A DNA stretch of 64,000 bases from Spirochaetia bacterium. Its GTDB lineage: Bacteria; Spirochaetota; Spirochaetia; CAKZLE01. Location: assembly GCA_963677595.1 (NCBI GenBank), contig OY782041.1:320001-384000 (forward strand), written 5' to 3'. Each line of letters starts with the position of its first letter. Position 1 is the stretch's first letter. This document shows positions 17,105 through 44,996 of this stretch, piece by piece. Position numbers and translations under genes: made by a program. The notes beneath the pieces were generated by a model, which saw only the letters and a list, made by a program, of their open reading frames with translations, made no database searches and had not been told where the DNA came from.

Positions 17105-18887
17105 CCCAAATTCCCGATAATTTGTAACTAGGAGAGAGGCGTGATGGTTTCGAAGGGATCCTGATCACCCTCATTCACCAGCTTTCCCTTCCAGGAATAC
17201 TGGACACCGAACAGGTCAAAGATAAGGCGCTGAGCTTTGGTCGGGACCGTAAAAACGTCACCATACTTGCCTCGGTAATGAACTTTCGAGTACGTATTTA
17301 CCTTATCCAGTACTTCCTTGTAGTTCCAATACTTGCGCTGCTTCGCAGGAATGAGCTTGATGCGTTCCTTCAGAGCAGTGAGAATAATCAGAGTTATGAA
17401 ATTAACGAAGAGCCTTCCCTGCATCACCTTGTCAGTATGGACTCTCAAGCGATTGCAATCGACAAGATTCTTCATATCATCGAAGAGCAGTTCAATGTCA
17501 TTTCTCTGCCGGTAGGCATATAAAGCCTGAACAGGATCCTTTTCTGCATTGGTATAGAGAACCCAGAATCCGCTTTGCCCATCGATGAAAGCCTGAACTT
17601 CCTGATCCTTAAGAATCACTCTCCTTCCTCTTTTAGGCGTCTCTTTCACTTCGAAGTATCGCTTATAGTACGACTGATGGTATTTAATTGGCTCATTCGC
17701 ATCAAGCTCGGCTTTGCATTTCTGCAGTCGCTCCATCAGACGGGCAACGTCCCGCTCTTTTCTTGCCGCATCGAAATAGACATGAGCCCACATTCTTCCG
17801 TGTTCAGTCTTCCTGATGGTCTTCAAACCATAGATGATGGCATCGGTATCATCCGCAGGAATAAGCGTGTTTGGACGTTGAATGGTACGGCGATGTTTCT
17901 CTATAAGTTCTCTAGCCCAGGTCACGTTCGAAGGAACAGGTATGAGGAATTCGTGACCATGATCGCTCAAATGAGCGATGTTATCGACAGAGCAGAACGC
18001 TCTGTCCCCTATGATCACAGAGGAAGGGATCTCAAGTTTTTTCAGCTGTTCGAGCACCTGTTGAAGAACTATTGAATCGTTCATACTTCCAGGCATTTCT
18101 GAAAACCAGAGAGGAAGGTGAGTTTCATAGGAACTGAGAAGCCCGATATTGATCTGAGGGATCTTTTCTTTGTCTCGGTTATACCCACGCTCTACATAGG
18201 GATTATGCTTCGCATAGCTGGAGATGCTGCTGATGTCGAATAACAGATTCTTCTTTTCCATGTTCTTTCCTATCCAGGAAGAGAAGAATGTGTTCTGAAT
18301 GTCCTTATCAAGTCTTTTCAGGAGTTCGGTGATCCTCTGTGAACAGAGGCTGGAACCATTGAATCCTCGGTCATCAAGCCAGGACTCAGCATAGCTGAGA
18401 GGTCTGCCGGTACAGATTGAGTATTTCGCAAGCTCGAGAACAGAGATCGCATCCTGAGATCCTAATGCCTTTGAAAGAATACGCCCCAGTCCGATGCGCC
18501 TGATGATAGGATCGAGGAGGAGATTCTGACCGAGCAGGGTTGTCTTTGATACAACAGGGACAGGAAGCTCTTTGGCTTGATTCTCTTGCTGCCGGGATAG
18601 GTAAAATGAGTTATAGATGATCTGTCCATGAGTATCAAGCTTACCGATACACTTACGGCTATGACGACCTTGCTTTTTCTCGCTATCCCAATAGGCGGTG
18701 TCTTCGTAGACATACGTGACATTGGATTTCTTGTTGTGGACCTTGATAATTTTGGCGGTATTCCCTGCTTTTGTCATAGTTCTAATTATAACTATGTTTT
18801 ACAGAATATTCAATCACCAAATAGATATCTAATACATATATTTAATGAATTTATGATTCCCTAGTTACAATTTATCGGGAATTTGGG
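17105..18887 (-). mobile_element. IS1634-family element, type B (1783 bp)
   Basis: 28-bp IR CCCAAATTCCCGATAA(T/A)TTGTAACTAGG with 1 mismatch; 7-bp TSD TTAGCAA. Confidence 0.95.
17128..18777 (-). CDS. IS1634-family transposase
   Basis: FDISSISSY, GYNRD, GDRAF, YRQRNDIELLFDDMK. Confidence 0.92.
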   Translation of the reverse strand: MTKAGNTAKIIKVHNKKSNVTYVYEDTAYWDSEKKQGRHSRKCIGKLDTHGQIIYNSFYLSRQQENQAKELPVPVVSKTTLLGQNLLLDPIIRRIGLGRILSKALGSQDAISVLELAKYSICTGRPLSYAESWLDDRGFNGSSLCSQRITELLKRLDKDIQNTFFSSWIGKNMEKKNLLFDISSISSYAKHNPYVERGYNRDKEKIPQINIGLLSSYETHLPLWFSEMPGSMNDSIVLQQVLEQLKKLEIPSSVIIGDRAFCSVDNIAHLSDHGHEFLIPVPSNVTWARELIEKHRRTIQRPNTLIPADDTDAIIYGLKTIRKTEHGRMWAHVYFDAARKERDVARLMERLQKCKAELDANEPIKYHQSYYKRYFEVKETPKRGRRVILKDQEVQAFIDGQSGFWVLYTNAEKDPVQALYAYRQRNDIELLFDDMKNLVDCNRLRVHTDKVMQGRLFVNFITLIILTALKERIKLIPAKQRKYWNYKEVLDKVNTYSKVHYRGKYGDVFTVPTKAQRLIFDLFGVQYSWKGKLVNEGDQDPFETITPLS

Positions 18888-26779: not shown

Positions 26780-26958
26780 AGCTGTGTATTTACAGAAACC
26801 TAGCTGCGAGAGATACATCTACCGCAGCTGGGTTCCTATCGATCCTTGTTCTAGAATCTATTCAGAACGTTCATTAACAAGGGCTCTTTGGAGAAAAACC
26901 ACCACAAAGAACGCCTCATGTACAAATCCCCGAACCCTGCCATATGGTACGGCAGCAG

Positions 26959-27609
26959 TCAGTTCTTCTGTGTGGGAAGCATACAGTTCAGCTGCTGTAT
27001 GATGTCATGGAAGGTATCGTAAGGGAAGTAGGGGATTTCGTGCTTATTAAGGTTCTCGGCAAGCCTGTCGCGGGCAAAGATGATATCAGCAGCTTGTGCC
27101 ATGATGAAATCAGTATAGGAATCACCGATACAGATAGAAGTGTCGTAGCTGTAGCGAGACATAACCTCCCGTTTCCCCACGATCTCTAGGTCAGTCTCAT
27201 AATCAGACCAGTAGCGGACATACTTTTCGTTCAAGTCGACTTCCGCGGTATATAACTGCTGAATCCCGTCCATGAACGGTTCCAGGTTTCTCACCACCAT
27301 CTCCCTGATACCACCAGAGATAACCACAAGGGGAATTTGGTTCTGCTGCAGTACCTTCACAAATTCAGGGAATCCTCGACGAATCGTAAGAGTATCGAAG
27401 AACCACGTGTTCTGCAGGTACTCCTCGACGGGTATACGCGACATCATTTCACGAATTCCGCCTTTCACGGAATAGCCTTCCTGAAGCATCCGTGCCGCTG
27501 CATCCTGAATATCTTCATTGATGAACAGCTGAATAAACTCTTCCAAGCTCTCTTTCTCGGTAATCGTACCGTCAAAGTCTGAAAAAACTATCAGGGGATA
27601 GTGTTCCAA
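26959..27609 (-). CDS. HAD-IB phosphatase, MtnX-like
   Basis: SDFDGTIT, ISGG, K, IGDSYTD, FARD; probable TTG start after GGAGG. Confidence 0.85.
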   Translation of the reverse strand: MEHYPLIVFSDFDGTITEKESLEEFIQLFINEDIQDAAARMLQEGYSVKGGIREMMSRIPVEEYLQNTWFFDTLTIRRGFPEFVKVLQQNQIPLVVISGGIREMVVRNLEPFMDGIQQLYTAEVDLNEKYVRYWSDYETDLEIVGKREVMSRYSYDTSICIGDSYTDFIMAQAADIIFARDRLAENLNKHEIPYFPYDTFHDIIQQLNCMLPTQKN

Positions 27610-27693
27610 GGGACAGCCTCCATGACGCAGTTTCACATGGAAATGGAGGCAGATGGATATCCGCCTCCATTTCATAATCGATTGTACTATGAA

Positions 27694-29010
27694 TTATTTC
27701 ATCAGGTCGAAATTGCTCTGTGCATCCCAGCCTAATCGGTCAGCCATAGCCATCAGCTCAGGTGCATCTTTTGCATATTCTTTCAGGGGAATTCCCTTCT
27801 GAGCTGCATCGATAGCCTGTCTCATTGACTTAGCACCTGCTTGTGATCCCTGCGGGTGCCCGTGAATTGCTCCACCAGCGGCGATGATGCAGTCCGTTCC
27901 CAGGTCCTTGATGACTTCAGGAACGATCAACTGTGTGGTACCGCCTGAGGCTGCGCACATTGTCGGCTTGATATCCCACATGGGCTGGCTGAAGTTACGT
28001 GCTGTTCTTAGATAGGTGCGCTTGTTCAGAGGGAACTTGCCATACGGGCTTCCCCATATAGCCAGGTCGGCTCCGATCATCCTACTCATCTTTCCCACGA
28101 GCAGTGGTGCAGAAACACCATAATAGGGTGAACTGATTGAAGCCCCGGCGAAATCGATGTGGGACATGACCGGGAGGTTGATCTCCGGGTCCTCAATAAC
28201 GGATCGGGCAGCCGAGAATCCGGCAGTGTAGAAGTTGATCATCAGCGCATTGGCACCGGCTTCCTTAGCACGCATTGCATTTTCCCGCAGTTTGTCAGCA
28301 CGGTCCGTGATATTCACACAGTAGAGGGTATGCTCACCGGTTTCCTCAAACACCTGGCGTTCCTTCTCGATAAAGAGCTTTACACGCTTCTCAAGAGGGC
28401 AGTACGGGTGGTCAGCAGGCAGTAGCTCATCATCCTTGATGACATCACAGCCGCCTTTTGCTGCCTGGTAGAACAATTCTGCTCCCTCTTCAGGGGTCCA
28501 GCCTGTATTCGGCTTGATCATGGCGTTCAGCAGAGGTCGATCATATACGTTCAGCTTCTCCCTCAGTCCATGTGTACCGAATCTTGGCCCCTGGTATTTA
28601 TCAACATAACTTTTAGGGAATGCACAGTCGAGGAATTTCACCTTCCCTGCAGATGCCACATTCCCGATAACCGTTGACATGAGCATTGGCCAGCTGTCCC
28701 CGATAAAGAAGGAAGGAAAGGCGACCTGCACGATGACCGGCCTTTCACCGATGATCTCATCGCCGCAAGGGTCGGGTATCTCATACACAGCAACGACCTT
28801 CGCACCGAATCGTTTCTGGACTTCAGTAGTTTCTCCCCCGACAGAAATCCAGGTACCGGTTGACTGCTCGTCAGCCAATGCCTTGGCAAAAGCCTCTACA
28901 TTTGATGTAGGTGTGTGGACCAGGTAGGTAGCGATGATGTAGTCCTCGGAATAGGCCACTTCCGGATACGAGTGAAGCAGGTTCCAATCGTCAATAGATT
29001 TTACATACAT
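27694..29010 (-). CDS. RuBisCO-like protein (form IV)
   Basis: EQSTGTW, GPRFG, IKPNTG, IKDDE, SGG, GGAIHGHP; K177 and R295 equivalents replaced; no rbcS or prk nearby. Confidence 0.93.
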   Translation of the reverse strand: MYVKSIDDWNLLHSYPEVAYSEDYIIATYLVHTPTSNVEAFAKALADEQSTGTWISVGGETTEVQKRFGAKVVAVYEIPDPCGDEIIGERPVIVQVAFPSFFIGDSWPMLMSTVIGNVASAGKVKFLDCAFPKSYVDKYQGPRFGTHGLREKLNVYDRPLLNAMIKPNTGWTPEEGAELFYQAAKGGCDVIKDDELLPADHPYCPLEKRVKLFIEKERQVFEETGEHTLYCVNITDRADKLRENAMRAKEAGANALMINFYTAGFSAARSVIEDPEINLPVMSHIDFAGASISSPYYGVSAPLLVGKMSRMIGADLAIWGSPYGKFPLNKRTYLRTARNFSQPMWDIKPTMCAASGGTTQLIVPEVIKDLGTDCIIAAGGAIHGHPQGSQAGAKSMRQAIDAAQKGIPLKEYAKDAPELMAMADRLGWDAQSNFDLMK

Positions 29011-29060
29011 AATAATTCTCCTTATAATAGGTAAGTCAATTTATTCAGATATACTATCTG

Positions 29061-30101
29061 TTAAGCTAAGACTTCGGGATTGAGGCAGTACTTGAGTTCC
29101 TCATTCCGATGGAATCGAGCCAGATCCCCGATTGCACGCTCTATGGCACAGCGAATGGTTATCTGGGATGCTCCCCCGATATGGGGAGTGATGGTCACGT
29201 TCTCGAGCGGAAGATACCGGCTGTCCTTTTTCAGCGGTTCATGCTCAAACACATCCAATGCAGCACCGCCAATACGTTCATGTACCAATGCATCATAGAG
29301 CGCATCCATATCAACAAGCTCAGAACGTGCAGTATTAACCAAGAGGGCATCCTCTTTCATCATGTGAATCTGTTCACTCCCGACCATGTTATGATTAGCT
29401 TCTGTCACCTTAGCATGGACAGTAACAACGTCGCTGCCGGCACAGAGTCCATTGAGGGACATTGGTATACAACCTGCCTCACGTACGGCTTCGTCCTTCA
29501 CATAGGGATCGAACACCGCAACCTTACTGCCCAAAGCCTTGAAGAGCGATGCAACCTGTCGGCCGATATTCCCGAACCCGATAATCCCCACCTGAATTTC
29601 GGTAATCTCCCGGCTGACCTTTGCTGCACTGTAAAAATCACTTCGCCACTTGCCTTTTCTCAGGTCATGGTTTGCAATCGGGATATTCTTCAAGTGGGCC
29701 AGTACCAATGCCAATGTGAACTCCGCCACGGCTGAGAGATTCCTGCCGGGACTGTTGAACAATGGGATCCCGCGCTTTGTCAATTCTGCCAGGTCGATGT
29801 TCACTGCCCCTCCCCTGGTAGCTGCCACCGCCTTCAATTGAGGGAGGGCATCCAACACTTTGGCTGTGACGGGAGCAACATCAGTTACCAGATATTCAGC
29901 ACCAAGCGCTGCCTCAATAACCTCATCCTCGTTTCCGTCGTATTCTGAAATAGCCCCAGTCCCCTTTGCCACGGCCTGGCTCAGATCCAGAGGCCAGCCG
30001 GTACTGTATCCTCCTACCTCCGCGTCGGGAAAGTTCCGCTTGATCTCTTCAGCCATAACCTCATAACGGATGAACTGATTTCCAATTGCCGCTATTTTCA
30101 T
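29061..30101 (-). CDS. D-isomer-specific 2-hydroxyacid dehydrogenase
   Basis: GFGNIG, NTAR, LDVFEHEP, TPHIGG. Confidence 0.92.
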   Translation of the reverse strand: MKIAAIGNQFIRYEVMAEEIKRNFPDAEVGGYSTGWPLDLSQAVAKGTGAISEYDGNEDEVIEAALGAEYLVTDVAPVTAKVLDALPQLKAVAATRGGAVNIDLAELTKRGIPLFNSPGRNLSAVAEFTLALVLAHLKNIPIANHDLRKGKWRSDFYSAAKVSREITEIQVGIIGFGNIGRQVASLFKALGSKVAVFDPYVKDEAVREAGCIPMSLNGLCAGSDVVTVHAKVTEANHNMVGSEQIHMMKEDALLVNTARSELVDMDALYDALVHERIGGAALDVFEHEPLKKDSRYLPLENVTITPHIGGASQITIRCAIERAIGDLARFHRNEELKYCLNPEVLA

Positions 30102-30130
30102 ATGGTAAATCCTCCAATCTGTACTTTATA

Positions 30131-30335
30131 GCACATTTGTTCTGCACATTTGTTCTTATTAAAAACACATTACCATAGGGATTCCAGGTTGTCAAGAAAA
30201 AATATGTTAATTCTACCCTCTGTAAAGGCAGTCATTTTCATCTCCAAAACTGACGGTACTAAGTTTATTACATATTTGACAGATGGGGAAACCCATGCTA
30301 ACGTAATTGAGGAACATATTTTATGCACATTTGTT
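30131..30335. promoter_or_regulatory. Divergent promoters with tandem SorC-type operators
   Basis: GCACATTTGTTCT x2 (30131-30156); GAACATATTTTAT-GCACATTTGTT (30312-30335); TTGACA-N17-TAATGT (-, 30195-30167); TTGACA-N17-TAACGT (+, 30276-30304). Confidence 0.75.
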
Positions 30336-30381
30336 ATTTCCTAATCGATAAAATATATTTCAGGTAGAAAGGAGAAGAAGT

Positions 30382-31911
30382 ATGGGGAACAGTTATATCA
30401 TAGGTATTGATGCCGGCACCTCAATGGTTAAAAGCATTGTTTTTGGTAAGGGGGGAGAAGAACTTGCTGTCTCGAGCCGTAAGGTAGAGCTTATCATTCC
30501 TTCCCAGGGCCGGGTAGAACAGAACATGGATGAGGTATGGGATTCTGTGGCTGAAACCATTCGCGAGGTCCTGACTATGACAGCCATAGACCCAAATGAT
30601 GTGGCAGCTGTCGCTGTCACTGCAGAAGGTGACGGTTTATGGATGATCGGCTATGACGGTAACCCGGCAGGGAATGCCATCAACTGGATGGACAGCCGGG
30701 GGTCAGATCTCTGTGTAAGATGGTACACTGATGGTACGGCAACCAAGATTTATGGAGTAAACGGTTTCCCCATGTATCCAGGCAATTACCTCTGTCTGGT
30801 TCGCTGGGTGATAGAGAACGATCCCGAACTTCTGGAAAACACCGCCTGGCTCGCTGACTGTAAAGACTGGCTGAAGTTCAAGATGACCGGAAAAGTCAGC
30901 AGGGATGAGAGCATGGCCCTGCTGCACGATATCGCCACCACAGAATTCGAACCTGCCATGATCGAGATCTGCGGGTTTGAATCCGTGAAGGATAAATTCC
31001 CCGAGACCTTAGGATGCCTGGAGAACCATGCACCGCTCACTGAGGACATGGCGGTTAAACTGGGATTGCCGGCAGGGATTCCGGTATTTGGCGGGCCCTT
31101 CGATGTCATTGCCTGTGCTGTGGGGGCAGGAGTCCTGGGTGAGGGAGATGCCTCAGTGACGATTGGGACAACAACCATGGTGGCATTGGGCCAGAACAGC
31201 CCGTATGTGGACTCTATCAGCCCTACCCTCAATAACGGCTTCCCGAATAGCTGGTTACGGGTACAGGGCGTCATGACCGGTACACCCAACATCGAATGGG
31301 CTATAAAGAATCTCGGAATGAAATATGAAGAATCCGCAAAACTCAACAACTGCTCCATCTATGAAGAGATTGAGCGGCACATATCCACCGTCAACCCCGG
31401 CTGTGACGGGGTCATGTATCACCCATACCTCTCACCGTCCGGGGAACGGTCGCCTTTCGTCAAACCATCTGCCAAGGCCCAGTTCTTTGGGATTTCCACT
31501 GAGCACACGACAGATCACCTGTTTCGCGCCGTCTACGAAGGTATCGGGTTCTCGGTCATGAACTGTATTGATTTGAGCCAAGCCACCCTGAAATCTTTGC
31601 GGCTGATCGGTGGCGGGTCCAAGAGCCCGTTCCTATGCCAGCTCATGGCAGACATGACAGGGTTGGAAATTCTGGTGGTCGACGGTGAGCAGGTCGGGGC
31701 AAGGGGCAGTTCCATTGTTGCCAGCGTCGCACTTAACCTGTACCCCTCAGCAGAAGAGGCACGGAACCAGTGCATCGAGATCAAGGGCAGATATACACCG
31801 AACCCGGAGCTTGTGGAAAAATACCAGAAGCTGTACAAGCTGTATGTTGCAGTCTATAAGAGCCTCTGGGATACCTGGGATCTTCGGGCAGAGATACTTC
31901 AAGGTCTGTAG
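30382..31911 (+). CDS. FGGY carbohydrate kinase, EryA/L-xylulose kinase-like
   Basis: IGIDAGTS, VTAEGDG, WMDSR, YHPYLSPSGERSPF, YEG, GGGSKS. Confidence 0.9.
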   Translation: MGNSYIIGIDAGTSMVKSIVFGKGGEELAVSSRKVELIIPSQGRVEQNMDEVWDSVAETIREVLTMTAIDPNDVAAVAVTAEGDGLWMIGYDGNPAGNAINWMDSRGSDLCVRWYTDGTATKIYGVNGFPMYPGNYLCLVRWVIENDPELLENTAWLADCKDWLKFKMTGKVSRDESMALLHDIATTEFEPAMIEICGFESVKDKFPETLGCLENHAPLTEDMAVKLGLPAGIPVFGGPFDVIACAVGAGVLGEGDASVTIGTTTMVALGQNSPYVDSISPTLNNGFPNSWLRVQGVMTGTPNIEWAIKNLGMKYEESAKLNNCSIYEEIERHISTVNPGCDGVMYHPYLSPSGERSPFVKPSAKAQFFGISTEHTTDHLFRAVYEGIGFSVMNCIDLSQATLKSLRLIGGGSKSPFLCQLMADMTGLEILVVDGEQVGARGSSIVASVALNLYPSAEEARNQCIEIKGRYTPNPELVEKYQKLYKLYVAVYKSLWDTWDLRAEILQGL

Positions 31912-32001
31912 GAGAGTTTCCTCTTCAACACGGGTACTGAGGCACAATGGGGGTGGCGATGAGTCGCCCCAAGTGCAGCCCAGGATAATCATATATGGAG
32001 C

Positions 32002-32559
32002 ATGAACGGCGTGAGAGAAATCGAGGTAAAATATCAGTATTGGGACACGGACAGGACCCACATCGAGCAGACATGCAGAAAGCTGGGATTCGTTCACATA
32101 AAAACAGTCACTGAACACGATATCTATTATACCCCCTCAGGGAGGAACCTGCTGAAGGAAGGCACCGCTTTTCGGTTGCGGTCAATCATGGAGGGGAAGT
32201 CCGCAAACTGGGAAATCACCTACAAAGGCCCCAATCTCTCCCCAGGCGGGCAGGATCGCGAGGAATTAGAGGTAGCTGTCCAAAACAATGGAGCCCTCCT
32301 TCCACGGATCCTTGAGCATGTGGGGTTCATAAAACTGGCAGAAATTCATAAAACAAGAGCCTACTTTCACCATAAGGATATTACCATATGTATTGATTCA
32401 GTGGTGAATCTTGGCGAGTACCTGGAAGTAGAAATATTGGGGACTGAAGAATCATCTGAGGAAGTTTATAACAAGATAGGCAGCATCATCGATGCATTCG
32501 GTTTGGCTCATATGGAGAACGAGCCAAGAACTTACCTGGAAATGCTTCTTACCCCCTAA
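32002..32559 (+). CDS. CYTH-domain protein (class IV adenylate cyclase/triphosphatase-like)
   Basis: EIEVK (ExExK), DIYY, RLR, TYKGP, REELE, KTR, LGEYLEVE, TYLE. Confidence 0.9.
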   Translation: MNGVREIEVKYQYWDTDRTHIEQTCRKLGFVHIKTVTEHDIYYTPSGRNLLKEGTAFRLRSIMEGKSANWEITYKGPNLSPGGQDREELEVAVQNNGALLPRILEHVGFIKLAEIHKTRAYFHHKDITICIDSVVNLGEYLEVEILGTEESSEEVYNKIGSIIDAFGLAHMENEPRTYLEMLLTP

Positions 32560-32591
32560 TATTTTATTCATTTGTCTGATACGGTTCACTT

Positions 32592-33578
32592 ATGAGAAAG
32601 AAGAATGTACTGATTGAGAGAATGACTCTCTATGATGTAGCAAAGATGTATTACATCGATAATAAGAGTCAGCAGGAAATCTCAACAATCATCGGGGTGT
32701 CCAGACCTCAGATATCCAAGATGCTCAAGGAAGCGAGAGAACAGAATATCGTCGAGATCAGTTTGAATTTACCGGTCGATATTATAAGTTCCAACCTTGA
32801 GAATCGACTGAAAGAGGTACTTGGCATCTCAAAAGTCCATATCGTGATGACCGATGATATTCCCAAAGAGAATTATGACAAAAGACTTGATTCGGTTACC
32901 ATCTTCTTTGCATCATACCTGCTGGACAACATGGTTCGCTTCAAGCGAATCGGTCTAGGCTGGGGTCGGACCCTGTATCAGGCAATCCTGAAACTCCCCT
33001 TCAGCTCAAACCATACTGATACGTTGTTCATGCCCCTGGTGGGAGGTGCCGGTATGGAACCCTGGTACCAGACAAACTCTATCATCGATCGAATCGCTGA
33101 GAAGTTCAAATGTGATACCTTTTTTATCAATGCCCCTGCGTTTGTCCTGAACCCCCTGGTTCGCCAGTATATTTCTGAAAAGAAAAACCTGGGGTTTGAG
33201 ATCAACCAGTGGGAACAGCTTGAAGTTGCCTATTTCAGTGTTGGCGGTTCCCTGCGGTATTCAAAAAGTATCCTTACTGCCATCAGCAACGACAAGATTG
33301 CCGATATGCTGATAAATCGTGGTGCCATAGGTGACATTCTGGGGAATTTCTTGAACGATGAGGGAAACCCAGTTCTTTCGGCAGAAGAGGCGATCAGTGT
33401 CTCCATACCCTTAGAAACATTAGCCGCGGTTCCAGAACGTGTATGCATAGCTATAGGAGAAGAAAAGCTCGAGCTTCTGACCGTAGCTGCCAAGAAAGGG
33501 TATATCACGGAATTAATCACCGACAGCCATACAGCCTTGCAGGCCCTGAAATTGTTTGAAAACACAACCGAGCATTGA
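32592..33578 (+). CDS. SorC/DeoR sugar-binding transcriptional regulator
   Basis: YYIDNKSQQEIS...SRPQISKML, GLGWGRTL, PLVGG, GAIGDI, LITD. Confidence 0.93.
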   Translation: MRKKNVLIERMTLYDVAKMYYIDNKSQQEISTIIGVSRPQISKMLKEAREQNIVEISLNLPVDIISSNLENRLKEVLGISKVHIVMTDDIPKENYDKRLDSVTIFFASYLLDNMVRFKRIGLGWGRTLYQAILKLPFSSNHTDTLFMPLVGGAGMEPWYQTNSIIDRIAEKFKCDTFFINAPAFVLNPLVRQYISEKKNLGFEINQWEQLEVAYFSVGGSLRYSKSILTAISNDKIADMLINRGAIGDILGNFLNDEGNPVLSAEEAISVSIPLETLAAVPERVCIAIGEEKLELLTVAAKKGYITELITDSHTALQALKLFENTTEH

Positions 33579-33862
33579 TGTCTACGTGAGATGACTCACA
33601 CAGCAGGGTTCCGATTCAGGATTACCACACATTTCCCTAACGACATGAGCACTACTTCATTTTTAGTCTCCTCCTCCCTGCACTTGAATCCTGCTCCTAT
33701 TCAGTCTGGACAAGACCGTATTTGATACATAATGGTCAAATACAATCATTATATCCTCACTATTACTGTTCATACTTGTGCATTATACAGCTCATACCAT
33801 AAGGACAATTCAGCTTTCCCGTGGTATACTACCAACAAGAATCACCAGTAAAAGGAGTTGAC

Positions 33863-35983
33863 ATGAAAGATATCGATTTCTCAGTACGTTCCCTCGCCGA
33901 GATCTACGGGGAGAACAGTTTCACTGAAGCATTCATGAAGGAACGGCTTCCATCCAATGTGTTCAAGGAGTTCAAGCGGGTCCAGATGGGCGAGAGCACA
34001 CTGACCCGGGAGACTGCGGAGATCATCGCCAACTCCATGAAAGACTGGGCTCTCGAGCGGGGAGCCACCCACTTCTCCCACTGGTTCCAGCCGCTCACCG
34101 GGCTGACTGCTGAGAAGCATGACTCATTCATCAACCCCTGCAGTGACGGCACGGTGCTGATGGAGTTCTCCGGCAAGGAGTTGATCCAGGGCGAGCCTGA
34201 TGCCTCCTCCTTCCCGAGCGGAGGGCTTCGGGCGACCTTCGAGGCCCGCGGGTATACCGCATGGGACACGACCTCCCCTGCGTTCATCAAGGATCAGGAC
34301 GGGGTGAAGACATTGAACATCCCGACGGCATTCGTCTCCTATACCGGCGAGGCACTCGATAAGAAGGTCCCTCTGCTGCGTTCCATGGAGGCAGTGAACA
34401 AGGCTGCCCTCAGGGTACTCAGGGCATTGGGGAACACCACCTCGAAACGGGTCCACGCCCATGTCGGCCCCGAGCAGGAGTATTTCCTCGTAGACAAGGA
34501 GCTCTTTGCAAAACGGCCGGACCTGCTGCTCACCGGTCGCACCGTCTTCGGGACGATGAGCGCCAAGGGGCAGGAGCTCGATGACCACTATTTCGGCGCG
34601 ATCAAGGAGCGGGTAGCCAAGTTCATGCAGGAGCTTAACCTGGAACTCTGGCGACTCGGCATCTCCGCGAAGACCCAGCATAACGAGGTAGCCCCCAACC
34701 AGTTCGAGATAGCCAATGTATTCTCCACGGCGAACTCAGCTACCGACACGAATTAGCTCGTCATGGAGACGCTCAAGACCGTTGCCAACCGTCATGACAT
34801 GGTAGCGCTGCTGCACGAGAAACCCTTCGCAGGGGTGAACGGTTCCGGCAAGCACGACAACTGGTCGATCGATACCGATGACGGCATCCGGCTGCTCAAA
34901 CCAGGCGAGAACCCACAGGAGGATGCCCAGTTCCTCCTCTTCCTCACCGCAGTCATCACCGCAGTGGACCGGTATGCGCCCTACCTGAGGTTGACTGCCG
35001 CGAATGCGGGGAATGACCACAGACTCGGGGCCAACGAAGCCCCGCCGGCAATCATCTCCATCTTCCTCGGTGACCAGCTGACTGAGATCCTGGACTCCAT
35101 CGTCGACGGCACTCCCTACAGGGAGCGTGGAGGCGAGATCCTCAAGATAGGGGCAACGACGCTCCCTTCCTTTCCGAGGGATATATCAGACAGGAACAGG
35201 ACTTCGCCGTTCGCCTTCACCGGCAGCAAGTTCGAGTTCAGGATGGTAGGCTCCTCGCAGTCCCTGGCAGGACCGAACGTCATGCTCAACACCACCGTGG
35301 CCCAGGTACTGACGGAGTTCGCGGAACGGCTCGAGCAGGCTGATGATACGATGGCCGGGATCAATGCCGTCATAAAGGAGTATTATACCACCCATCGAAG
35401 GGTAATCTTCAACGGGAATGGCTACTCGGATGAGTGGGTCGCCGAGGCTGGGAAACGGGGACTGCCGAACCTGACCAATACCGTCGATGCACTGACCCGC
35501 ATGCTCGATGAGGAATGCGTGGACCTCTTCGCGAACCAGAAGGTCCTCAGCAAGGAAGAGCTGGAGTCACGGCTCGAGATCTACCTCGAGACCTACAGCA
35601 AGCAGGTCAACATCGAGGCTGGGGTCATGTTCGAGATGGCGAAACGGCTGGTCGCCCCGGCCGTGAACCGCTACCTGCAGGAGATCATCACCTCGGTGAA
35701 GGAACTGAAGAAGCTCGGGGTGGAGTCCCCGGAGCAGATGAAGCTCATCCGTACGATCACACAGCTGATGAACGATCTCCTCTCACGTGCAGATGAACTA
35801 TCAGACAGGATCACCGAGGCCCTTGCTATCGGGGAAGATGTGCTTGCCCAGGCGAAAGCCTATCGCGGGCAGGTCGTGCCGGCGATGGCAGCACTCCGGG
35901 AGAAGGCCGACGCACTGGAGAAGTGCACCGATAAGAATCACTGGCCCTACCCCTCGTATGAGGATATGCTCTTCAGGCTGTAG
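33863..35983 (+). pseudogene. glnA: Glutamine synthetase type III interrupted by an in-frame TAG (34754-34756)
   Basis: [62 protein letters not shown]; both ORF halves in the same frame. Confidence 0.85.
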
Positions 35984-36862: not shown

Positions 36863-38379
36863 CTCTGTCTCTCCTTCATAAAATTACAATGTATGTAATT
36901 TAAATATCTTTTTAACGATGTTTTCTTATCGTTATTTGATTATAACCGATTATTACTATTCTTACCACCATATTCCGAATTGACTCATCAGTAGACAAAC
37001 TGCCCTCTTTTATCTAAGATCTTCTCATACCTTCAGGAGCAGGCAGCATGGGAACCATCAAGACCGTCTCCGGCAGTATCTGCCGCGGGGCACTGGTAAC
37101 AGTCTCTCTTCTCTACATGATCGGGGCACTCTCCCCGGCAGACCTGTCATCGGTCCTGGGGATCGGCGGCTTACTGATCATGGTCTCAGCGATCCCCCTG
37201 GTCAAACCCTCCTACGGGCGGCCGGCTGCTGTCTTCATCCTGCTGTCAGCGATCGGATACATCCGGTACGGCATGACTGTAGATGTGGTGACAGCCGGGA
37301 TCAACTCCATGCTTTCGATCGTTGCCATCATCACCGTGCTGCAGCTCTTCATCGTCCCTATCAGGGCTGGAGGCTATGATACCGCCCTGAACTGGTACCT
37401 GAAGAGACGCTTCACCACTGAGGCAGGACTCTATCTCTTCATCAGCCTCATCGCCCATTTCCTGGGAAGCTTCATGCTCTTCGGGACGGTCCCGATGCTC
37501 TATGCCCTCTTCGGGAATTCCCTGAAGGAGATGGTGCGTGAACCGGGCAGGTTCACTGTCACAGCCATTGGCAGAAGCTTCACCCTGGTCACACTCTGGG
37601 CCCCCGGGGCGGTCAGCGTCGTATTGGTGCTTGAGAGTACCGGGGCAGCTTGGACCGCGATCCTCCCATCAGTACTGGCGATCGCCCTCCTCGGGCTGCT
37701 GACCTCCCTGGGCCTGGAGCAGGTACGCATGTTCAAGGGAAGGAAGGTCACAGCAGATGAGGCAGATACCCTGTCGGTATCGAACGGTGACAGCAAAAAG
37801 ATCGTCACGCTCTTCGCCGTCGCCGGGATCCTGCTGCTGGGTATTCTGGCTATGGACCTGCTGGACCTGCTCTCAAGCGGTTCAGCACGTGTGATCGTAG
37901 TCGGGCTGGTCATCGCACTGGCCTGGACCTCCCTGCATAGGAAAGGGGGCAATGTACGGAAACACATCGGTGAGTACTGGAACAACTCGCTGAGCATCGT
38001 ACCGGACCTGACGGTGATGTTCCTCGCGATGGGGATCTTCACCGAGGTCATCAAAACCACCCCGTTCATAGGGAATATTGAAAGCTGGATCATGGAGACA
38101 GCCACTAGTATGGGAGCCTTCTATTTCTTCATGATCCCACCGCTGATCATCGGGCTCTCCCTGACCGGGATCCATCCCTTCATCGGGGTGATCTTCCTCG
38201 GGAGCCTGCTCTCATCAGCCATGCCTGACCAGACCAGTCTGACGGCCCTCGCCCTCCTCCTTGGGAGCGCCATCTCCTATTCCGTCTCACCCTTCGCAGG
38301 CACGCTCATCACCCTGTCACGATTCGCAGGCTGTTCACCGGCGAAGGCAGCATTCTCCTGGAACGGGATCTTCTCTTTA

Positions 38380-39676
38380 GGATCTGTGTATAAATAATCT
38401 ATGCGAATATTTCTGATGGAGCAATGCAGTAATTCCATTCTCCATGAAATTCATTCCTCGTAATATTGATCCTCTCAAGTTCTTCAGCTGATACCTTTAT
38501 CCCTGTCTCATAGATGTTCTGATCCAATTCGCATTGTATCTTCAATCCTGATTCGGTCGTTGTTGACTCAATCAGACTGATTATGACAAGGAGGGTTTCA
38601 AGGGGTCTTCCCCTCCAATTCTTTGAGATGTAGCTAAACATTCGATGTTCGATCTTATTCCACTTTGAAGTTCCCGGTGGGAAATGGGAGACATAGATCT
38701 GCAATCCCGTTTCATTCGCCAGTTCCTGCAGTTCGGTCTTCCAGAGTCTGTTCCTGCTCCCGTTACTCCCACCACCGTCTGCGGTAATGTAGAGCTTTGA
38801 TGCTGAAGGGTACCGACTTTTGCCCATCTCATCCCACCATTCCCGGATAGAATTCACCGCAAACTTTGCCGTGTCTGAGCTGACCCCAAGATTGATGAAT
38901 CCTTCATTCTTCGCTATATCATAGATCCCATACGGTGCAACCTTCCCAAGATCAGGCAGCGGAAAGTCGTGATCAAGGACTTTCACCGGATTCCCTGATT
39001 TAGCATACTCTGCACCCTGATTCTTGAAATTACCCACCAGTTCTTTCTTTTTACAATCAATAGAGATCACTGGTAACCCTTCTGCTATGAATCCTTTAGC
39101 CATCTCGTTGATATGCTGAAATTGCTCATCCCGGTCAGGATGGGGCTTCCCGACCTGCAGCATCTTCTGGTTTAGCTGCATGCTGTAGCCCAAGTCGGAA
39201 AGCATCTGCCTGACCTTGGAAAACGAGACCTGAAAGCCCTGTTTACCGAGGACGTCACTCAGGTTCCTTAGACTTTTTGTCGTCCACAGCAGTGGTGATT
39301 CCGGATTACCGAAACTGCTGTCAGCAACCAGGGCTTCTAACGCCTTCGTGATGCCAGGTTGCGTCTCTTCTATTGGCTTGCGGCCACCACCTTCCTTCCG
39401 AATCCTGGTTGAAGATCTTGGATCAACAGGTTCCCTGATCTCCTTGATCCCGGCAGCAATGGTATTACGAGAAACACCAAGCGCTTTACTGATCTGGGTA
39501 ATCCCTCCGCGACCAATACTCTCAGCCTCAGCTGCAAGATATTTACGCTTCTGACTCTCATCTAGTAGAGGAACTATGGTATGTATGCGTTTTATCGTTA
39601 TCTCATCGAGCATGCACCATTCTATCATGAGAAGACAAAGAAATCAATATTGCTTATGTTATTTATGCACAGTTCC
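38380..39676 (-). mobile_element. ISAzo13-family element (1297 bp)
   Basis: 18-bp IR GGA(T/A)CTGTG(T/C)ATAAATAA; 3-bp TSD TTA. Confidence 0.93.
38399..39613 (-). CDS. ISAzo13 transposase
   Basis: GGGRK, WTTKSLRNL, HPDRDEQF, ISIDCKKKE, ADGGGSNG, PPGTSKWNKIEHR. Confidence 0.95.
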   Translation of the reverse strand: MLDEITIKRIHTIVPLLDESQKRKYLAAEAESIGRGGITQISKALGVSRNTIAAGIKEIREPVDPRSSTRIRKEGGGRKPIEETQPGITKALEALVADSSFGNPESPLLWTTKSLRNLSDVLGKQGFQVSFSKVRQMLSDLGYSMQLNQKMLQVGKPHPDRDEQFQHINEMAKGFIAEGLPVISIDCKKKELVGNFKNQGAEYAKSGNPVKVLDHDFPLPDLGKVAPYGIYDIAKNEGFINLGVSSDTAKFAVNSIREWWDEMGKSRYPSASKLYITADGGGSNGSRNRLWKTELQELANETGLQIYVSHFPPGTSKWNKIEHRMFSYISKNWRGRPLETLLVIISLIESTTTESGLKIQCELDQNIYETGIKVSAEELERINITRNEFHGEWNYCIAPSEIFA

Positions 39677-39977: not shown

Positions 39978-40820
39978 CTATTTCACTCCTCCGAAGGTCA
40001 ACCCACTGATATAGTACTTCTGAAGCATGAGCGACAGCAGGATCACCGGCAGGATCGCCACGACACCCATCGCCGCCATATAGGTCCAGCCCTGCTGCAG
40101 GATCCCGAAGGTGCTGAGCATCCCAAGGGGGAGTGTGCTCGTATCAGGGGAGGTCAACGTCAGGGCGAACAGGAAGTCATTCCAGGAGAAGATGAATGCG
40201 AACAGGGACGAGGTTACCAGTCCCGGCTTGCTCAGCGGTACCGCGATATAGAGGAAAGCCTGCACGGGATTGCATCCGTCAATGCGCCCTGCATCCTCGA
40301 GGTCCGACGGGATCGACTCGAAGATCCCGCTCATGAGCCAGAACGTGAATGCAGCGTTGTACACCGTATCGATCAGGATAACCGCAGCCCTGGTACCGAG
40401 CAGGCCAAAGTTCTGCATGATGATCCGAAAGGGCATCACCAGGACGATGGTGGGGAGAGCCCTGGTCATGAGGATCATGATCAGCAGCAGCTTCTTCCCC
40501 CTGAACTGGATCCTCGAAAAGGCATAGCCTGCCGGGACTCCTATCAGGAGGGAAAGAACCATGGTTCCCAGCGAAATCACCAGGGAGTTCACGATCCAGC
40601 TGTTTATCGCCATGTTGGTGAAGACATACTTGAAATTATCGAAGATGAACGCACCGAAGAGCTTCGGAGGCAGCTTGAACATGGAGATGCGCTGGGCCAG
40701 TGACGTCGACAGGATCCAGACGACAGGCAGCGCGATGAATGCCATAATGAAGATGATCAGGAGGATCCGGAATATATTCATCACAGACTGAAAAGAATTG
40801 CTTTTACCGACTACCGCCAT
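39978..40820 (-). CDS. Carbohydrate ABC permease (MalG-like)
   Basis: EAA loop LEDAGRIDG, FSWNDF. Confidence 0.93.
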   Translation of the reverse strand: MAVVGKSNSFQSVMNIFRILLIIFIMAFIALPVVWILSTSLAQRISMFKLPPKLFGAFIFDNFKYVFTNMAINSWIVNSLVISLGTMVLSLLIGVPAGYAFSRIQFRGKKLLLIMILMTRALPTIVLVMPFRIIMQNFGLLGTRAAVILIDTVYNAAFTFWLMSGIFESIPSDLEDAGRIDGCNPVQAFLYIAVPLSKPGLVTSSLFAFIFSWNDFLFALTLTSPDTSTLPLGMLSTFGILQQGWTYMAAMGVVAILPVILLSLMLQKYYISGLTFGGVK

Positions 40821-40821
40821 C

Positions 40822-41727
40822 TCAGGACTCCTTGTTCTCGTAGATGAATCGTATGAAGAAGACGCCGACGATCACACCGATGATCAGCAGCACATTTGAC
40901 AAGGCCGCAGCGTACCCGATCCGCAGCTGGTTCATCCCGACCTCATAGATCCTGAGGTTCGCGACCGTGGTCGAAGTACCGGGGCCGCCCCCGGTGATTG
41001 CCCAGATGATGTCGAAGACCTTCAGGGCATCAAGGGAACGGATGAGCAGCGCGACAAGCAGCGTCGGCCGCAGGAGCGGCAGCGTGATTCTGAAGAAAAG
41101 CGGGATCTCCCCTGCCCCGTCGATCCTTGCTGCCTCGTAGGGTTCGGAGGGCAGACTCTTCAGCCCGGCGAGTATGATGATCACCATCAGGGGTGTCCAT
41201 TCCCAGATGTCTACCGCGATGACGGCACCAAGGGCGAGGGACCGTTCAACGATGAGCCCCCTCCCGATATCGATGCCCAGCTTCCGGAGGTAATAGGTGA
41301 TCATGCCGAGATCCGGGTGGTAGAGGGACTTCCATACGAGCCCTGCCACCAGAGGGGTGAATACCGTGGGGATCAGGATGAATGTCCTGATGGCCTCCAT
41401 CACGGCATTCTCATGGTTCAGGAGAAAGGCTATGAGCATGCCGAACAGCACCTCTATCGTGACCGCGAAAAAGACGAAGACCAGCGTGGTGATCAGGGAC
41501 TTCAGGAACTGGGTATCCGCGAGCATCTCACGGTAGTTGTCCAGTCCATTGAACACCGGGGTCCTGCCCAGTTTCAGATCAAAGAACCCGATGAAGATGT
41601 TGTACAGCACAGGGTAGAGAAAGAAGATCATCATGTACAGGATGATAGGCACGAGAAACCACATGAGGCTTTTCTTCTTCTTGTCGATGGATAGCAGGGA
41701 GCTGATGGTCATTTGATCCTCCGACAA
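40822..41727 (-). CDS. Carbohydrate ABC permease (MalF-like)
   Basis: YEAARIDGA, ITLPLL, TGGGPG. Confidence 0.93.
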   Translation of the reverse strand: MSEDQMTISSLLSIDKKKKSLMWFLVPIILYMMIFFLYPVLYNIFIGFFDLKLGRTPVFNGLDNYREMLADTQFLKSLITTLVFVFFAVTIEVLFGMLIAFLLNHENAVMEAIRTFILIPTVFTPLVAGLVWKSLYHPDLGMITYYLRKLGIDIGRGLIVERSLALGAVIAVDIWEWTPLMVIIILAGLKSLPSEPYEAARIDGAGEIPLFFRITLPLLRPTLLVALLIRSLDALKVFDIIWAITGGGPGTSTTVANLRIYEVGMNQLRIGYAAALSNVLLIIGVIVGVFFIRFIYENKES

Positions 41728-41783
41728 AGCCGGATGATGAAAAAGTCATCCGGCTCTGTTCTTAGTTCTTCAGTTGTAATGAG

Positions 41784-43133
41784 CTAGAAGATCGCCTTGA
41801 TCTCTTCTGCTGCAAGGTCGAGAGCTTCTTTTGCCCCAAGTTCATGGGTGATCGCCTGGTTCACCCGCAGTCCGAGGATATCCTGGATCTGGCTGTATTC
41901 AGGTACTCGTGGTCGGTAGTCGCCATCCCCATTCTCATACACTGCAAGGATCCTGCTCATCCATGGCATCTCCTGGTTCAGCGCGCTGTCAGTGAGCACT
42001 GAGTAGCGGATCGGTGCCCCGTTGTTCCTTGTCCATGCCAGCTGAGCGTCCTTGCTTGTGATGTACTTGATGAATTCCCAAGCCACTTCAGCATTCTGGT
42101 CTGATGAATCAGCATTGATGGAGATCCCCCATCCGCCTACACCGTATCCGGGGTTTGAGCCGGCGACTCTCGGGGGAACAGCCATGCCTGTCTTGCCGGC
42201 AACGAGAGAGATTGACTCATCCTCATACCCTGCACGTGCGATACTCCAGGAGGACTGCATGACAGTCTGGCCGGTCCTGTAGGAAGACTCCCGGTCATCC
42301 CACCAGTAGCCGATCGCACCCTGGGGAGCCCAATCGTCGAACAGTTCCACGAAGAATTCGAGTGAATCGACACATTCGCTGCTGTTGACCGTCACGTTCC
42401 CATTGCCGTCAAAGATCTGACCGCCGAAGCCCCTCATGAATTCCATCCAGTCCTGTGCTACTGCAGGGCCCCTGGCTCCGCAGGCAACGAGGCCATACAT
42501 GTTCTCATCCGGGCGGGTGAAGAACTCGGAGATGTCGGCGAGCTGGTCCATAGTCTCCGGGGTTTCCAGCTCATACCCGTATTTGGCCTTGAAAGCAGCT
42601 TTCTCTGCAGGATCCTCATAGAGGTCCTTCCGGTAGATCAGGCTGTTCGCATAGGCAGCCATCGGGTACCCGATCTGCTTGCCGTTCCAGTCACCCATGA
42701 CCCACAGGATCGGCATGATGTCATCATAATCGATCTCGGCTTTGTCCCTGGCGATCCAGCTGGTGAGGTCTTTCGTCCATCCCTCCTGCTCGAACTGACC
42801 GGTCCAGACAATGTCCATCGTAGCCAGGTCGTAATCGGCTGACCCGGTCGCGAAATCCTGGGTGATCTTCTGCTGCAGTTCCACATAGCCCAGGACGTCG
42901 ATACGGACATCTGCACCTGTCTTTGCCTTGAATTCAGCACTTAAGGTCGGAAGATGATCCGCAAACTGTTCAGCGGCCACGGCGAAATGCAGGACGACTC
43001 CCTCGTACGGAAGGGCCTGGCTTACCGGTTCCGGAGAAGGACTACTCGCTGTTTCCTTCGCCCCGCCTGCGAAGATCATCACACAGGAGAGAAGCATAAC
43101 CGAGACGATAACCATTACTCTACTCTTTTTCAT
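41784..43133 (-). CDS. Carbohydrate ABC substrate-binding protein
   Basis: FAGGAKE signal, YRKDL, GGWGISIN, AWEFIKY. Confidence 0.92.
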   Translation of the reverse strand: MKKSRVMVIVSVMLLSCVMIFAGGAKETASSPSPEPVSQALPYEGVVLHFAVAAEQFADHLPTLSAEFKAKTGADVRIDVLGYVELQQKITQDFATGSADYDLATMDIVWTGQFEQEGWTKDLTSWIARDKAEIDYDDIMPILWVMGDWNGKQIGYPMAAYANSLIYRKDLYEDPAEKAAFKAKYGYELETPETMDQLADISEFFTRPDENMYGLVACGARGPAVAQDWMEFMRGFGGQIFDGNGNVTVNSSECVDSLEFFVELFDDWAPQGAIGYWWDDRESSYRTGQTVMQSSWSIARAGYEDESISLVAGKTGMAVPPRVAGSNPGYGVGGWGISINADSSDQNAEVAWEFIKYITSKDAQLAWTRNNGAPIRYSVLTDSALNQEMPWMSRILAVYENGDGDYRPRVPEYSQIQDILGLRVNQAITHELGAKEALDLAAEEIKAIF

Positions 43134-43199
43134 TTTCCACTCCTAAAAATATTTTCCATCCGAAAGCGCTGAGTCTTACCAAGTGCACCGGATTGGATT

Positions 43200-44995: not shown

Positions 44996-44996
44996 T

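What the first reader, a model, noticed from the sequence alone, without database searches (positions are those of the whole stretch)
26959..33578. Candidate new RuBisCO-like-protein pathway: dehydrogenase-RLP-MtnX-like / EryA-like kinase-CYTH-SorC
Seen: two divergent three-gene arms, somewhat more AT-rich than the flanks, sharing operators. Known: RLP plus MtnX acts in methionine salvage with MtnK/A/B/D, and other RLPs act in tetronate, apionate or hamamelose catabolism. Here the RLP-phosphatase pair has no mtn genes nearby. It is instead coupled to an FGGY kinase and a 2-hydroxyacid dehydrogenase under a sugar-phosphate-sensing SorC repressor. Inference: kinase and oxidation generate a keto-sugar(-acid) phosphate, the RLP enolises, isomerises or decarboxylates it, and the HAD enzyme dephosphorylates it. 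This gene set matches no pathway I can name.
Basis: partly seen in the sequence, partly recalled or inferred. Interest (0 to 1): 0.8.

Follow-up and report, generated by a model that had tools for sequence, protein, structure and literature searches.

The report
RuBisCO relative in sugar-alcohol breakdown
Six intact genes under one shared control region join a relative of the CO2-fixing enzyme RuBisCO to a kinase and a dehydrogenase related to known sugar-alcohol catabolic enzymes, so this is likely an undescribed way to break down a small sugar alcohol, with the RuBisCO relative predicted to act on a ketose-1-phosphate.

Summary
In detail: six intact genes, two mirror-image promoters, two 25-bp operators, mildly low GC. 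The RLP is not MtnW: it scores below the cut-offs, has Asn where MtnW has Lys, and MtnK, MtnB and MtnD were not found in the genome (mtnA lies elsewhere). It keeps RuBisCO's P1 site, Mg motif and loop-6 Lys, but its P2 pocket is hydrophobic. The kinase is in the erythritol-kinase (EryA) clade; the dehydrogenase is 42% identical to the Sinorhizobium gene I identify by gene order as the pentitol gene rbtA. Elsewhere this pair sits with a class II aldolase; here the RLP takes that slot. Kinase, dehydrogenase and RLP have consecutive accessions in Extibacter muris. The wider RLP clade usually pairs with another kinase and an aminotransferase, often with this HAD and CYTH; the scan noted that clade six times on other DNA, but not this front end. 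Likely route: polyol, polyol-1-P, ketose-1-P, then RLP. Isomerisation is my first choice, carboxylative cleavage the bold alternative. No chemistry is shown, and the full six-gene set was not seen elsewhere.

The parts
26959..27675 (-). HAD-IB phosphatase, MtnX-like but below the MtnX cut-offs; probable start TTG at 27609 (216 aa)
   Evidence: best score 150 bits to HADs beside related RLPs against 93 bits to Priestia MtnX
27694..29010 (-). RuBisCO-like protein (form IV), 438 aa, the only RuBisCO-family gene in the genome; uncharacterised clade
29061..30101 (-). D-2-hydroxyacid-dehydrogenase-family enzyme of the RbtA clade; predicted polyol-phosphate dehydrogenase
30133..30157 (.). Operator-like 25-nt repeat, copy 1 (two ACATTTGTT units 13 nt apart); predicted SorC site
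30167..30195 (-). Promoter-like site for the minus arm (TTGACA, 17 nt, TAATGT)
30276..30304 (+). Promoter-like site for the plus arm (TTGACA, 17 nt, TAACGT)
30314..30338 (.). Operator-like 25-nt repeat, copy 2
30382..31911 (+). FGGY kinase of the EryA-containing clade; predicted polyol kinase
32002..32559 (+). CYTH (triphosphate tunnel) protein, over the TIGR00318 cut-off; role unexplained
   Evidence: best 100 bits to CYTHs beside related RLPs against 43 bits to the genome's other CYTH
32592..33578 (+). SorC/DeoR-family repressor (same family as EryD, 22% identity)
26798..26836 (.). Hairpin between the convergent msrAB and HAD genes; possible shared terminator
   Evidence: -24.3 kcal/mol for 26790-26850, no shuffle control; not found by the terminator scan

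Best explanation
The locus is a co-regulated unit that likely catabolises a small polyol (erythritol, ribitol or L-arabitol type): the EryA-clade kinase is predicted to make the polyol-1-phosphate, the RbtA-clade dehydrogenase would oxidise C2 to a ketose-1-phosphate, and the RLP would enolise it and re-protonate the enediolate as an isomerase or epimerase. That would do the work of the class II aldolase or of the EryC/TpiB/RpiB isomerases found in other polyol loci. The HAD would remove phosphate from the product or from accumulating intermediates, and SorC would repress both arms until a phosphorylated intermediate binds. Shown: genes, families, residues, repeats, conservation. Inferred: every reaction. 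I put the ketose-1-phosphate front end at about 0.75, and isomerisation at about half of the RLP step.
For: Kinase: in a 24-row clade with S. meliloti and Marinovum EryA (SH 99) and shares their Gly-Asp signature at the GlpK R83/E84 positions; the 23 sampled kinases from the usual RLP loci fall outside it. Dehydrogenase: best plasmid hits, 41-43%, are the gene after the kinase in the Sinorhizobium erythritol/pentitol locus; PMC3599248 says EryA also takes adonitol and L-arabitol and that lalA-rbtABC serve these pentitols. Slot exchange: the kinase goes with this dehydrogenase and a class II aldolase in Streptomyces, Sinorhizobium and Paracoccus, with GlpABC and an aldolase in two haloarchaea, with EryB/EryC/TpiB/RpiB in Marinovum. 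G000 has no EryB or EryC match and one triose-phosphate isomerase match. Convergence: other RLPs of the clade follow a galactitol-type PTS plus an RbtA-clade dehydrogenase (L038, L044, L110), a kinase plus Zn-dehydrogenase (L155), or a kinase plus class III aminotransferase (70 of 132 loci). Each front end could deliver a 1-phospho-2-keto-3-hydroxy compound. Active site: T65, K175, K334, G381, G403, G404 and KDDE kept; R295, H327, H298 replaced by Ile, Ile, Ala, which fits a monophosphate. Precedent: the R. rubrum RLP is a ketose-1-phosphate 1,3-isomerase (PMC6302742).
Against: No activity was measured. I found no paper giving the reaction of RbtA, and the gene name rests on gene order. Identity to EryA is only 30%, below the 46% cut-off that PMC3599248 used for EryA homologues, and 42% to RbtA is below its 50%. 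E60, N123 and K334 are kept in 132, 133 and 132 of 133 clade sequences, more than a plain isomerase obviously needs. A product such as pentulose-5-P would not need a phosphatase, yet one follows the RLP in many loci. The locus has no transporter. In two relatives kinase and RLP accessions are consecutive and no RbtA-type hit matched their contigs. CYTH is unexplained.
Confidence: 0.42

Rival explanations
1. Same front end, but the RLP carboxylates the enediolate and hydrolyses the C2-C3 bond as RuBisCO does: for example erythrulose-1-P + CO2 + H2O gives 3-phosphoglycerate + glycolate. It would then replace the aldolase as the cleavage step.
For: E60, T65, N123, K175, KDDE, H294, K334 and S379 are all kept, while Priestia MtnW differs at E60, T65, N123 and K334. 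The RLP stands where a C-C-cleaving aldolase stands in sister loci. A transcarboxylating and hydrolysing RLP is known in apiose catabolism (PMC6302742). In 5 of 7 same-phylum loci the kinase-aminotransferase-RLP unit lies beside a sphingosine-1-phosphate-lyase homologue, as if it were a second way to cleave an amino-diol phosphate.
Against: K177 is Asn and L335 is Phe. The passages I read state that RLPs do not fix CO2 (PMC6404388). 3-Phosphoglycerate would need no phosphatase. The apionate decarboxylase OiaX also keeps K334, so that Lys does not mark carboxylation.
Confidence: 0.2
2. The substrate is a branched sugar acid (hamamelonate or apionate type). Kinase and dehydrogenase make a 2-carboxy-3-keto-1-phosphate, the RLP decarboxylates it to a ketose-1-phosphate, and the HAD frees the ketose for a housekeeping kinase.
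For: K334 is shared with OiaX and a Microvirga RLP of a similar locus. The dehydrogenase family normally acts on acids. This route gives the HAD an obvious job.
Against: OiaX score 172 against cut-off 700; the OiaX-type loci fetched use a four-carbon acid sugar kinase, not FGGY, and keep R295. Kinase and dehydrogenase have their characterised kin in polyol loci, and PTS-linked versions imply a polyol phosphate.
Confidence: 0.13
3. The RLP and HAD are an ordinary MtnW/MtnX pair for methionine salvage, and the neighbours are unrelated.
For: Best solved relatives by sequence and fold are MtnW enzymes, about 34% identity; RLP followed by an MtnX-like HAD is the mtnWX order; JGI labels many relatives as the enolase; mtnA is in the genome.
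Against: Below all four MtnW/MtnX cut-offs; Asn117 where MtnW has Lys; no MtnK, MtnB or ARD found, so the diketo substrate has no evident source; no cluster of mtn genes turned up among the recurring neighbours of related loci.
Confidence: 0.04
4. The RLP isomerises methylthioribulose-1-P or 5-deoxyribulose-1-P made by the distant MtnA, as in R. rubrum.
For: mtnA present without MtnB; the hydrophobic P2 pocket would suit a methylthio or methyl tail.
Against: mtnA lies about 150 kb away beside a PLP enzyme gene; it does not explain co-regulation with the kinase and dehydrogenase; the entry I recall as a DeepYkr RLP (3QFW) is not among the 60 best PDB sequence hits.
Confidence: 0.05

Closest known systems
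Sinorhizobium meliloti erythritol/adonitol/L-arabitol locus (eryD, mptABCDE, eryA, rbtA, fucA, eryB, lalA, rbtBC, eryC, tpiB, rpiB)
   Same: EryA-clade kinase (30%), RbtA-clade dehydrogenase (42%), SorC-family regulator (22%), and a HAD phosphatase in the locus (PMC3599248).
   Different: No EryB, EryC, LalA, RbtB, aldolase, TpiB, RpiB or transporter in this locus; an RLP, a HAD of another subfamily and a CYTH instead.
Kinase + RbtA-like dehydrogenase + class II aldolase (+ SorC) clusters of Streptomyces and Paracoccus; kinase + GlpABC + aldolase in haloarchaea
   Same: Same kinase clade, same dehydrogenase clade, SorC regulator in Streptomyces.
   Different: The aldolase slot holds the RLP here. 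I found no characterisation of these clusters; they resemble the old Propionibacterium erythrulose-1-P cleavage route, whose genes PMC4437456 could not assign.
MtnW/MtnX (DK-MTP-1-P enolase and phosphatase of Bacillus and Geobacillus; PDB 2OEK, 2ZVI)
   Same: Fold (TM about 0.85), KDDE, hydrophobic P2 region, RLP followed by a HAD-IB gene.
   Different: About 34% identity; E60, T65, N123, K334 kept here and changed in MtnW; no MtnK/B/D found.
R. rubrum methylthioribulose-1-P 1,3-isomerase
   Same: Works like the favoured mechanism: an RLP acting on a ketose-1-phosphate by enediolate re-protonation (PMC6302742).
   Different: Fed by SAM by-products and followed by a cupin; here fed by a kinase and a dehydrogenase.
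OiaX / OiaT apionate RLPs and the hamamelose-pathway RLP
   Same: Kinase + oxidoreductase + RLP logic; K334 kept.
   Different: About 31% identity; separate branch; they use DUF1537-type kinases and keep R295.

Membership tests
RuBisCO superfamily, form IV (RLP) | RuBisCO large-subunit fold with KDDE motif | tested here: met
Bona fide RuBisCO (forms I-III) | K177, R295, H327 and L335 present; score over family cut-off | tested here: not met
   N168, I285, I318, F326; 261 against 497 and 251 against 438
MtnW enolase | Score over NF007095 / TIGR03332 cut-off | tested here: not met
   339 against 409; 304 against 514
MtnW enolase | Lys at the N123 position (its role as general base is recalled from Imker 2007, not read) | tested here: not met
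   Asn in 133 of 133 clade sequences, Lys in Priestia MtnW
MtnW enolase | MtnK, MtnB and MtnD in the genome | tested here: not met
   genome 95.4% complete; mtnA present
MtnW enolase | Enolises DK-MTP-1-P | not testable with these tools
   needs an assay
MtnX phosphatase | Score over NF007103 / TIGR03333 / TIGR01489 cut-off | tested here: not met
   120 against 292; 103 against 303; 54 against 82; passes only generic HAD-IB
OiaX decarboxylase | Score over NF042437 cut-off; DUF1537-type kinase neighbour | tested here: not met
   172 against 700
DeepYkr / IV-Aful RLP clades | Monophyly with the R. rubrum or Archaeoglobus RLP | not tested
   no reference sequence was in hand; clade names from PMC6389311 passages, the listing and recall
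EryA clade of FGGY kinases | Groups with EryA; Gly-Asp at GlpK R83/E84 and Asp at D245 (positions from PMC3245297) | tested here: met
   (FastTree, SH 99); only three of the five signature positions could be read with confidence
EryA orthologue in the strict sense | At least 46% identity to S. meliloti EryA (cut-off of PMC3599248) | tested here: not met
   29.8%
RbtA clade of dehydrogenases | Groups with the S. meliloti gene after eryA; best match to it in own genome; catalytic Arg, Glu, His | tested here: met
   (SH 98, 25 rows); 41.6% is below the paper's 50% cut-off for RbtA
Ery/Rbt polyol pathway of rhizobia | eryB, eryC, tpiB | tested here: not met
   tblastn of G000: EryB 0 hits, EryC 0 hits, TpiB one 40% hit far away
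Class IV adenylate cyclase (CyaB) | TIGR00318 cut-off | tested here: met
   106.7 against 57.95; many CYTH proteins are triphosphatases (recalled), so activity is not implied
SorC regulon | Repressor binds the paired repeats and is released by a sugar phosphate | not testable with these tools
   repeats and their position shown; binding not

The most novel reading that the evidence does not exclude
The RLP is a true carboxylase of a ketose monophosphate: polyol-derived ketose-1-P plus CO2 gives 3-phosphoglycerate plus an aldonic acid, making polyol fermentation net CO2-fixing. The same chemistry would let the large kinase-aminotransferase-RLP clade of anaerobes cleave sphingoid-like amino-diols to 3-phosphoglycerate and a fatty acid. 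That would be free-CO2 fixation by a form IV protein and a living model of the step from RLP to RuBisCO.
Probability: 0.17. Interest if true: 0.92.

Novelty: new variant of a known kind. Interest (0 to 1): 0.62.

Why it matters
Only a handful of RLPs are characterised (PMC10176493), and how carboxylation arose from an RLP is open. This clade is large (2426 proteins at E <= 1e-60, a count that may include other RLP groups), keeps most RuBisCO catalytic residues, and is often mislabelled as the methionine-salvage enolase. Its usual partners give no known substrate. This locus is the version whose front end has genetically characterised kin (EryA, RbtA) and a named gut species carrying the trio (Extibacter muris). 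It therefore narrows the substrate to a short, purchasable list and makes the clade's reaction directly testable. It would also be a polyol route in anaerobes without the rhizobial ery genes.

Tried and rejected
DNA of the closest RLP subclade (66-84% identity) was not obtained: the genome scan gave 6 loci at 51-57%, the metagenome scan 80 loci at 48-63%, the viral scan none, and samples of 301, 401, 401 and 400 genomes gave no member of the subclade (one genome not scored). Co-location there rests on accession order and equal contig lengths. Expression and read support were not obtained. The IQ-TREE run did not finish; all trees are FastTree, and MtnW's place inside the clade is a long-branch join that I do not rely on. 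The first H327/K334 columns were one position off and were corrected. The FlaA search for host lineage rang nowhere, controls included, so I do not name the host phylum. Primary papers not held: Carter 2018, Tabita 2007, Imker 2008, Erb 2012 and one paper I meant as Barbier 2014. Rejected: (a) 3-keto-L-gulonate-6-P decarboxylation with an LyxK kinase, because the phosphate would need the lost P2 site and the kinase has the EryA signature; (b) L104's dehydrogenase as a partner, 5.9 kb away and outside the RbtA clade; (c) a contig-length match of 1154 between P0188 and P0291, different sources, counted as chance; (d) the sugar operon at window 39978-47175 as part of the unit: own GntR regulator, beyond a transposase; (e) a clade-type aminotransferase elsewhere in G000: best hit 28% over 290 aa. 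No complex prediction was run, as no binding is claimed.
Full report
1. The observation. Six open frames lie at the stated place in two divergent arms. Pfam and NCBIfam give HAD, RuBisCO large subunit, D-2-hydroxyacid dehydrogenase, FGGY kinase, CYTH and SorC-type sugar-binding regulator. Locus GC is 0.489 against 0.546 for the genome, 11% of 1305 windows are as low, and GC3 is 0.54-0.61 against 0.72-0.78 in flanking genes. The 280-nt spacer holds two 25-nt repeats, 21 of 25 identical; 1 of 500 shuffles matched that, and no third copy was found in the genome. Each repeat lies 9-10 nt downstream of a TTGACA-17-TAAyGT site, one per strand, the place of a repressor operator. The generic scan did not list these sites. 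Binding by SorC is inferred.

2. A recent arrival. The five closest held genomes match the window's flanks but not 26959-33578. Their best RLP hits are 34% and 29% in 2 of 5 and their best kinase hits 30% or less. In the same-genus genome G001 other genes follow msrAB. The closest named homologues are clostridial. Transfer is likely; its direction was not tested, and three of these genomes are fragmented.

3. The RLP is not MtnW. It is the only RuBisCO-family gene in G000. It scores under the cut-offs for MtnW, forms II and III and OiaX. Best solved relatives are MtnW enzymes at about 34% (model pLDDT 89). Against form I numbering, it keeps E60, T65, W66, N123, K175, K201, D203, E204, H294, K334 (Lys325), S379, G381, G403 and G404. 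K177 is Asn, R295 Ile, H298 Ala, H327 Ile, L335 Phe, Q401 Ala. In 133 clade sequences E60, N123 and K334 are kept in 132, 133 and 132; position 327 is Ile, Val or Leu in all 133. Priestia MtnW has Gly, Lys and Ser at 60, 123 and 334. The roles of these positions (P1 site, P2 site, loop 6) are recalled from the RuBisCO literature. G000 has mtnA far away, and MtnK, MtnB and ARD were not found.

4. The clade. I examined 132 loci holding an RLP 40-63% identical to this one, 68 groups at 90% identity, leaving out the window, its duplicate and the two distant RLPs of relatives. Within 7 kb: FGGY kinase 87 of 132 (45 of 68 groups), class III aminotransferase 70 (38), TetR 50 (26), HAD homologue 45 (18), CYTH homologue 35 (14), Zn-dehydrogenase 10 (8), 2-hydroxyacid dehydrogenase 6 (5; one is an unrelated bystander), SorC 5 (5), PHP 4 (3). 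Many loci are cut short; in the 64 with long flanks the counts are 51, 48, 35, 28, 19, 5, 4, 1 and 3. The window's HAD and CYTH are closer to these neighbours than to MtnX or to the genome's other CYTH. So RLP, HAD and CYTH are an inherited set. None of the 132 loci has the window's six genes, and their kinases are at most 31% identical to the window's. The scan had noted the kinase-RLP clade six times on other DNA; searches by words, by the dehydrogenase and by place found nothing for this version.

5. The window's subclade. The RLP belongs to a 15-row branch, SH 100, made of 13 database clusters at 66-84% identity. I could not fetch their DNA. In Extibacter muris the kinase, dehydrogenase and RLP have consecutive accessions, MCB6203318, 319 and 320, and likewise in two more accession series and in WP_227187905-907. 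Kinase and RLP are consecutive in an Oscillospiraceae and a Eubacterium assembly. Both partner searches scored only about 8000 candidates, so misses are not absences. HAD, CYTH and SorC were not tested in this subclade.

6. The front end. The kinase groups with S. meliloti and Marinovum EryA, SH 99, and shares their Gly-Asp signature; the usual clade kinases do not (positions from PMC3245297 passages). The dehydrogenase's best plasmid hits are the gene right after the kinase in the Sinorhizobium polyol locus. The record does not name it; the order of names in PMC3599248 matches the gene order and makes it rbtA. That paper (Background section and passages read) says EryA also takes adonitol and L-arabitol and that lalA-rbtABC are needed for them. 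Both window genes are the best G000 matches to these two proteins, at 30% and 42%, below the paper's orthologue cut-offs. The same kinase clade recurs with an oxidising enzyme (RbtA-like, EryB or GlpABC) and a ketose-phosphate enzyme (class II aldolase, or EryC/TpiB/RpiB) in 6 of the 7 annotated regions I opened; Streptomyces KN37 had a second kinase and a histidine phosphatase instead. RbtA-like and EryB/GlpABC thus look interchangeable, and RbtA-clade enzymes also follow a galactitol-type PTS, which points to polyol-phosphate oxidation. EryC, LerI and DerI act on erythrulose phosphates, and FucA-type aldolases make or cleave erythrulose-1-P (PMC10733421 passages).

7. Mechanism. Inferred: polyol to polyol-1-P to ketose-1-P, bound in the intact P1 site with its tail in a hydrophobic pocket. 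All characterised RLPs form an enediolate of a RuBP-like substrate and differ in what follows (PMC10176493 passages). Four front ends in this clade (kinase plus aminotransferase, kinase plus RbtA-type, kinase plus Zn-dehydrogenase, PTS plus RbtA-type) could each give a 1-phospho-2-keto-3-hydroxy compound. I favour re-protonation (isomerase or epimerase), 0.42 overall: there is direct precedent in R. rubrum (PMC6302742 passages), G000 lacks EryC, and a downstream phosphatase recurs. Carboxylative cleavage gets 0.20: E60, N123 and K334 are kept and the RLP stands in the aldolase's slot; against it, K177 is lost, 3-phosphoglycerate needs no phosphatase, and PMC6404388 states that RLPs do not fix CO2 (passage). 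Decarboxylation of a branched acid gets 0.13, MtnW 0.04, SAM by-product isomerase 0.05; the rest is for routes I did not think of. Unexplained: the CYTH gene, the missing transporter, and what oxidises the substrate in relatives where kinase and RLP are adjacent.

8. Literature and novelty. Nine full-text searches listed no paper on an RLP with an FGGY or erythritol kinase, a polyol dehydrogenase, an aminotransferase or a CYTH; I read listings and abstract openings, and passages of nine papers. One search matched 2601 papers and showed 30, none with the RuBisCO term. The library lacks most subscription papers, the primary RLP papers were not held, and no supplements were read; genome-neighbourhood supplements from the Gerlt group could already list this cluster. 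Verdict: a new variant of a known kind, a polyol-catabolic unit in which an uncharacterised RLP replaces the known third step. Interest 0.62: the chemistry is unproven and the clade was seen before by this scan, but this version makes the clade's reaction directly testable.

Noticed in passing
window 33845-35983: Glutamine synthetase type III gene with one in-frame TAG at 34754-34756 where five relatives have Gln; the genome has a second, intact copy at C1:4298546-4300666 that is the one syntenic with G001. Pseudogene or sequencing error.
   Followed up: yes
L119, L120, L123, L124, L125: In 5 of 7 loci from same-phylum family f41, the kinase-aminotransferase-RLP unit lies beside a second FGGY kinase and a sphingosine-1-phosphate-lyase homologue (E 1.5e-188 to PDB 3MAD). 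Suggests the main clade handles sphingoid-like 2-amino-1,3-diols.
   Followed up: partly
L103:10551-11993 and 70 of 132 loci: The clade's usual partner is a class III PLP enzyme closest to glutamate-1-semialdehyde aminomutase but below its cut-offs.
   Followed up: partly
L038, L044, L110, L039: RbtA-clade dehydrogenase, RLP and PHP phosphatase in a row; in the three longer loci preceded by a PRD regulator, PTS EI and galactitol-type PTS. A second polyol front end on this RLP clade.
   Followed up: partly
L155; L147, L148; L116: Further variants: GlpK-like kinase, Zn-dehydrogenase, RLP, HAD, CYTH in one run (L155); RLP, Zn-dehydrogenase and two HAD genes, one scored as Cof-type (L147, L148); Zn-dehydrogenase, RLP, TPP E1-like pair and PTS (L116).
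   Followed up: partly
G006, G008: Single clostridial genomes carry three or four paralogues of this RLP clade in different gene contexts.
   Followed up: partly
L054, L086, L111, L153, L117: RLPs beside UPF0261 (Tm-1-like) genes, mostly with PEP-hydrolase-like genes, as in earlier finding e1-3588771.
   Followed up: no
window 39978-47175 (-): Separate sugar operon: GntR/UTRA regulator, FGGY kinase, DeoC/LacD aldolase, Zn-dehydrogenase, ABC transporter.
   Followed up: no
window 17128-18777 and 38399-39628: Two transposase genes (DDE_Tnp_1 and ISAzo13 type) bracket the region; the second starts right after the membrane-protein gene 37048-38397.
   Followed up: no
G000 C1:492848-496344: A deacetylase-like gene appears twice with the same start, on either side of a 630-aa ORF, just upstream of mtnA; looks like an insertion with duplication.
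   Followed up: no
L007:9998-11313: The RLP of G010 is split into two frames.
   Followed up: no
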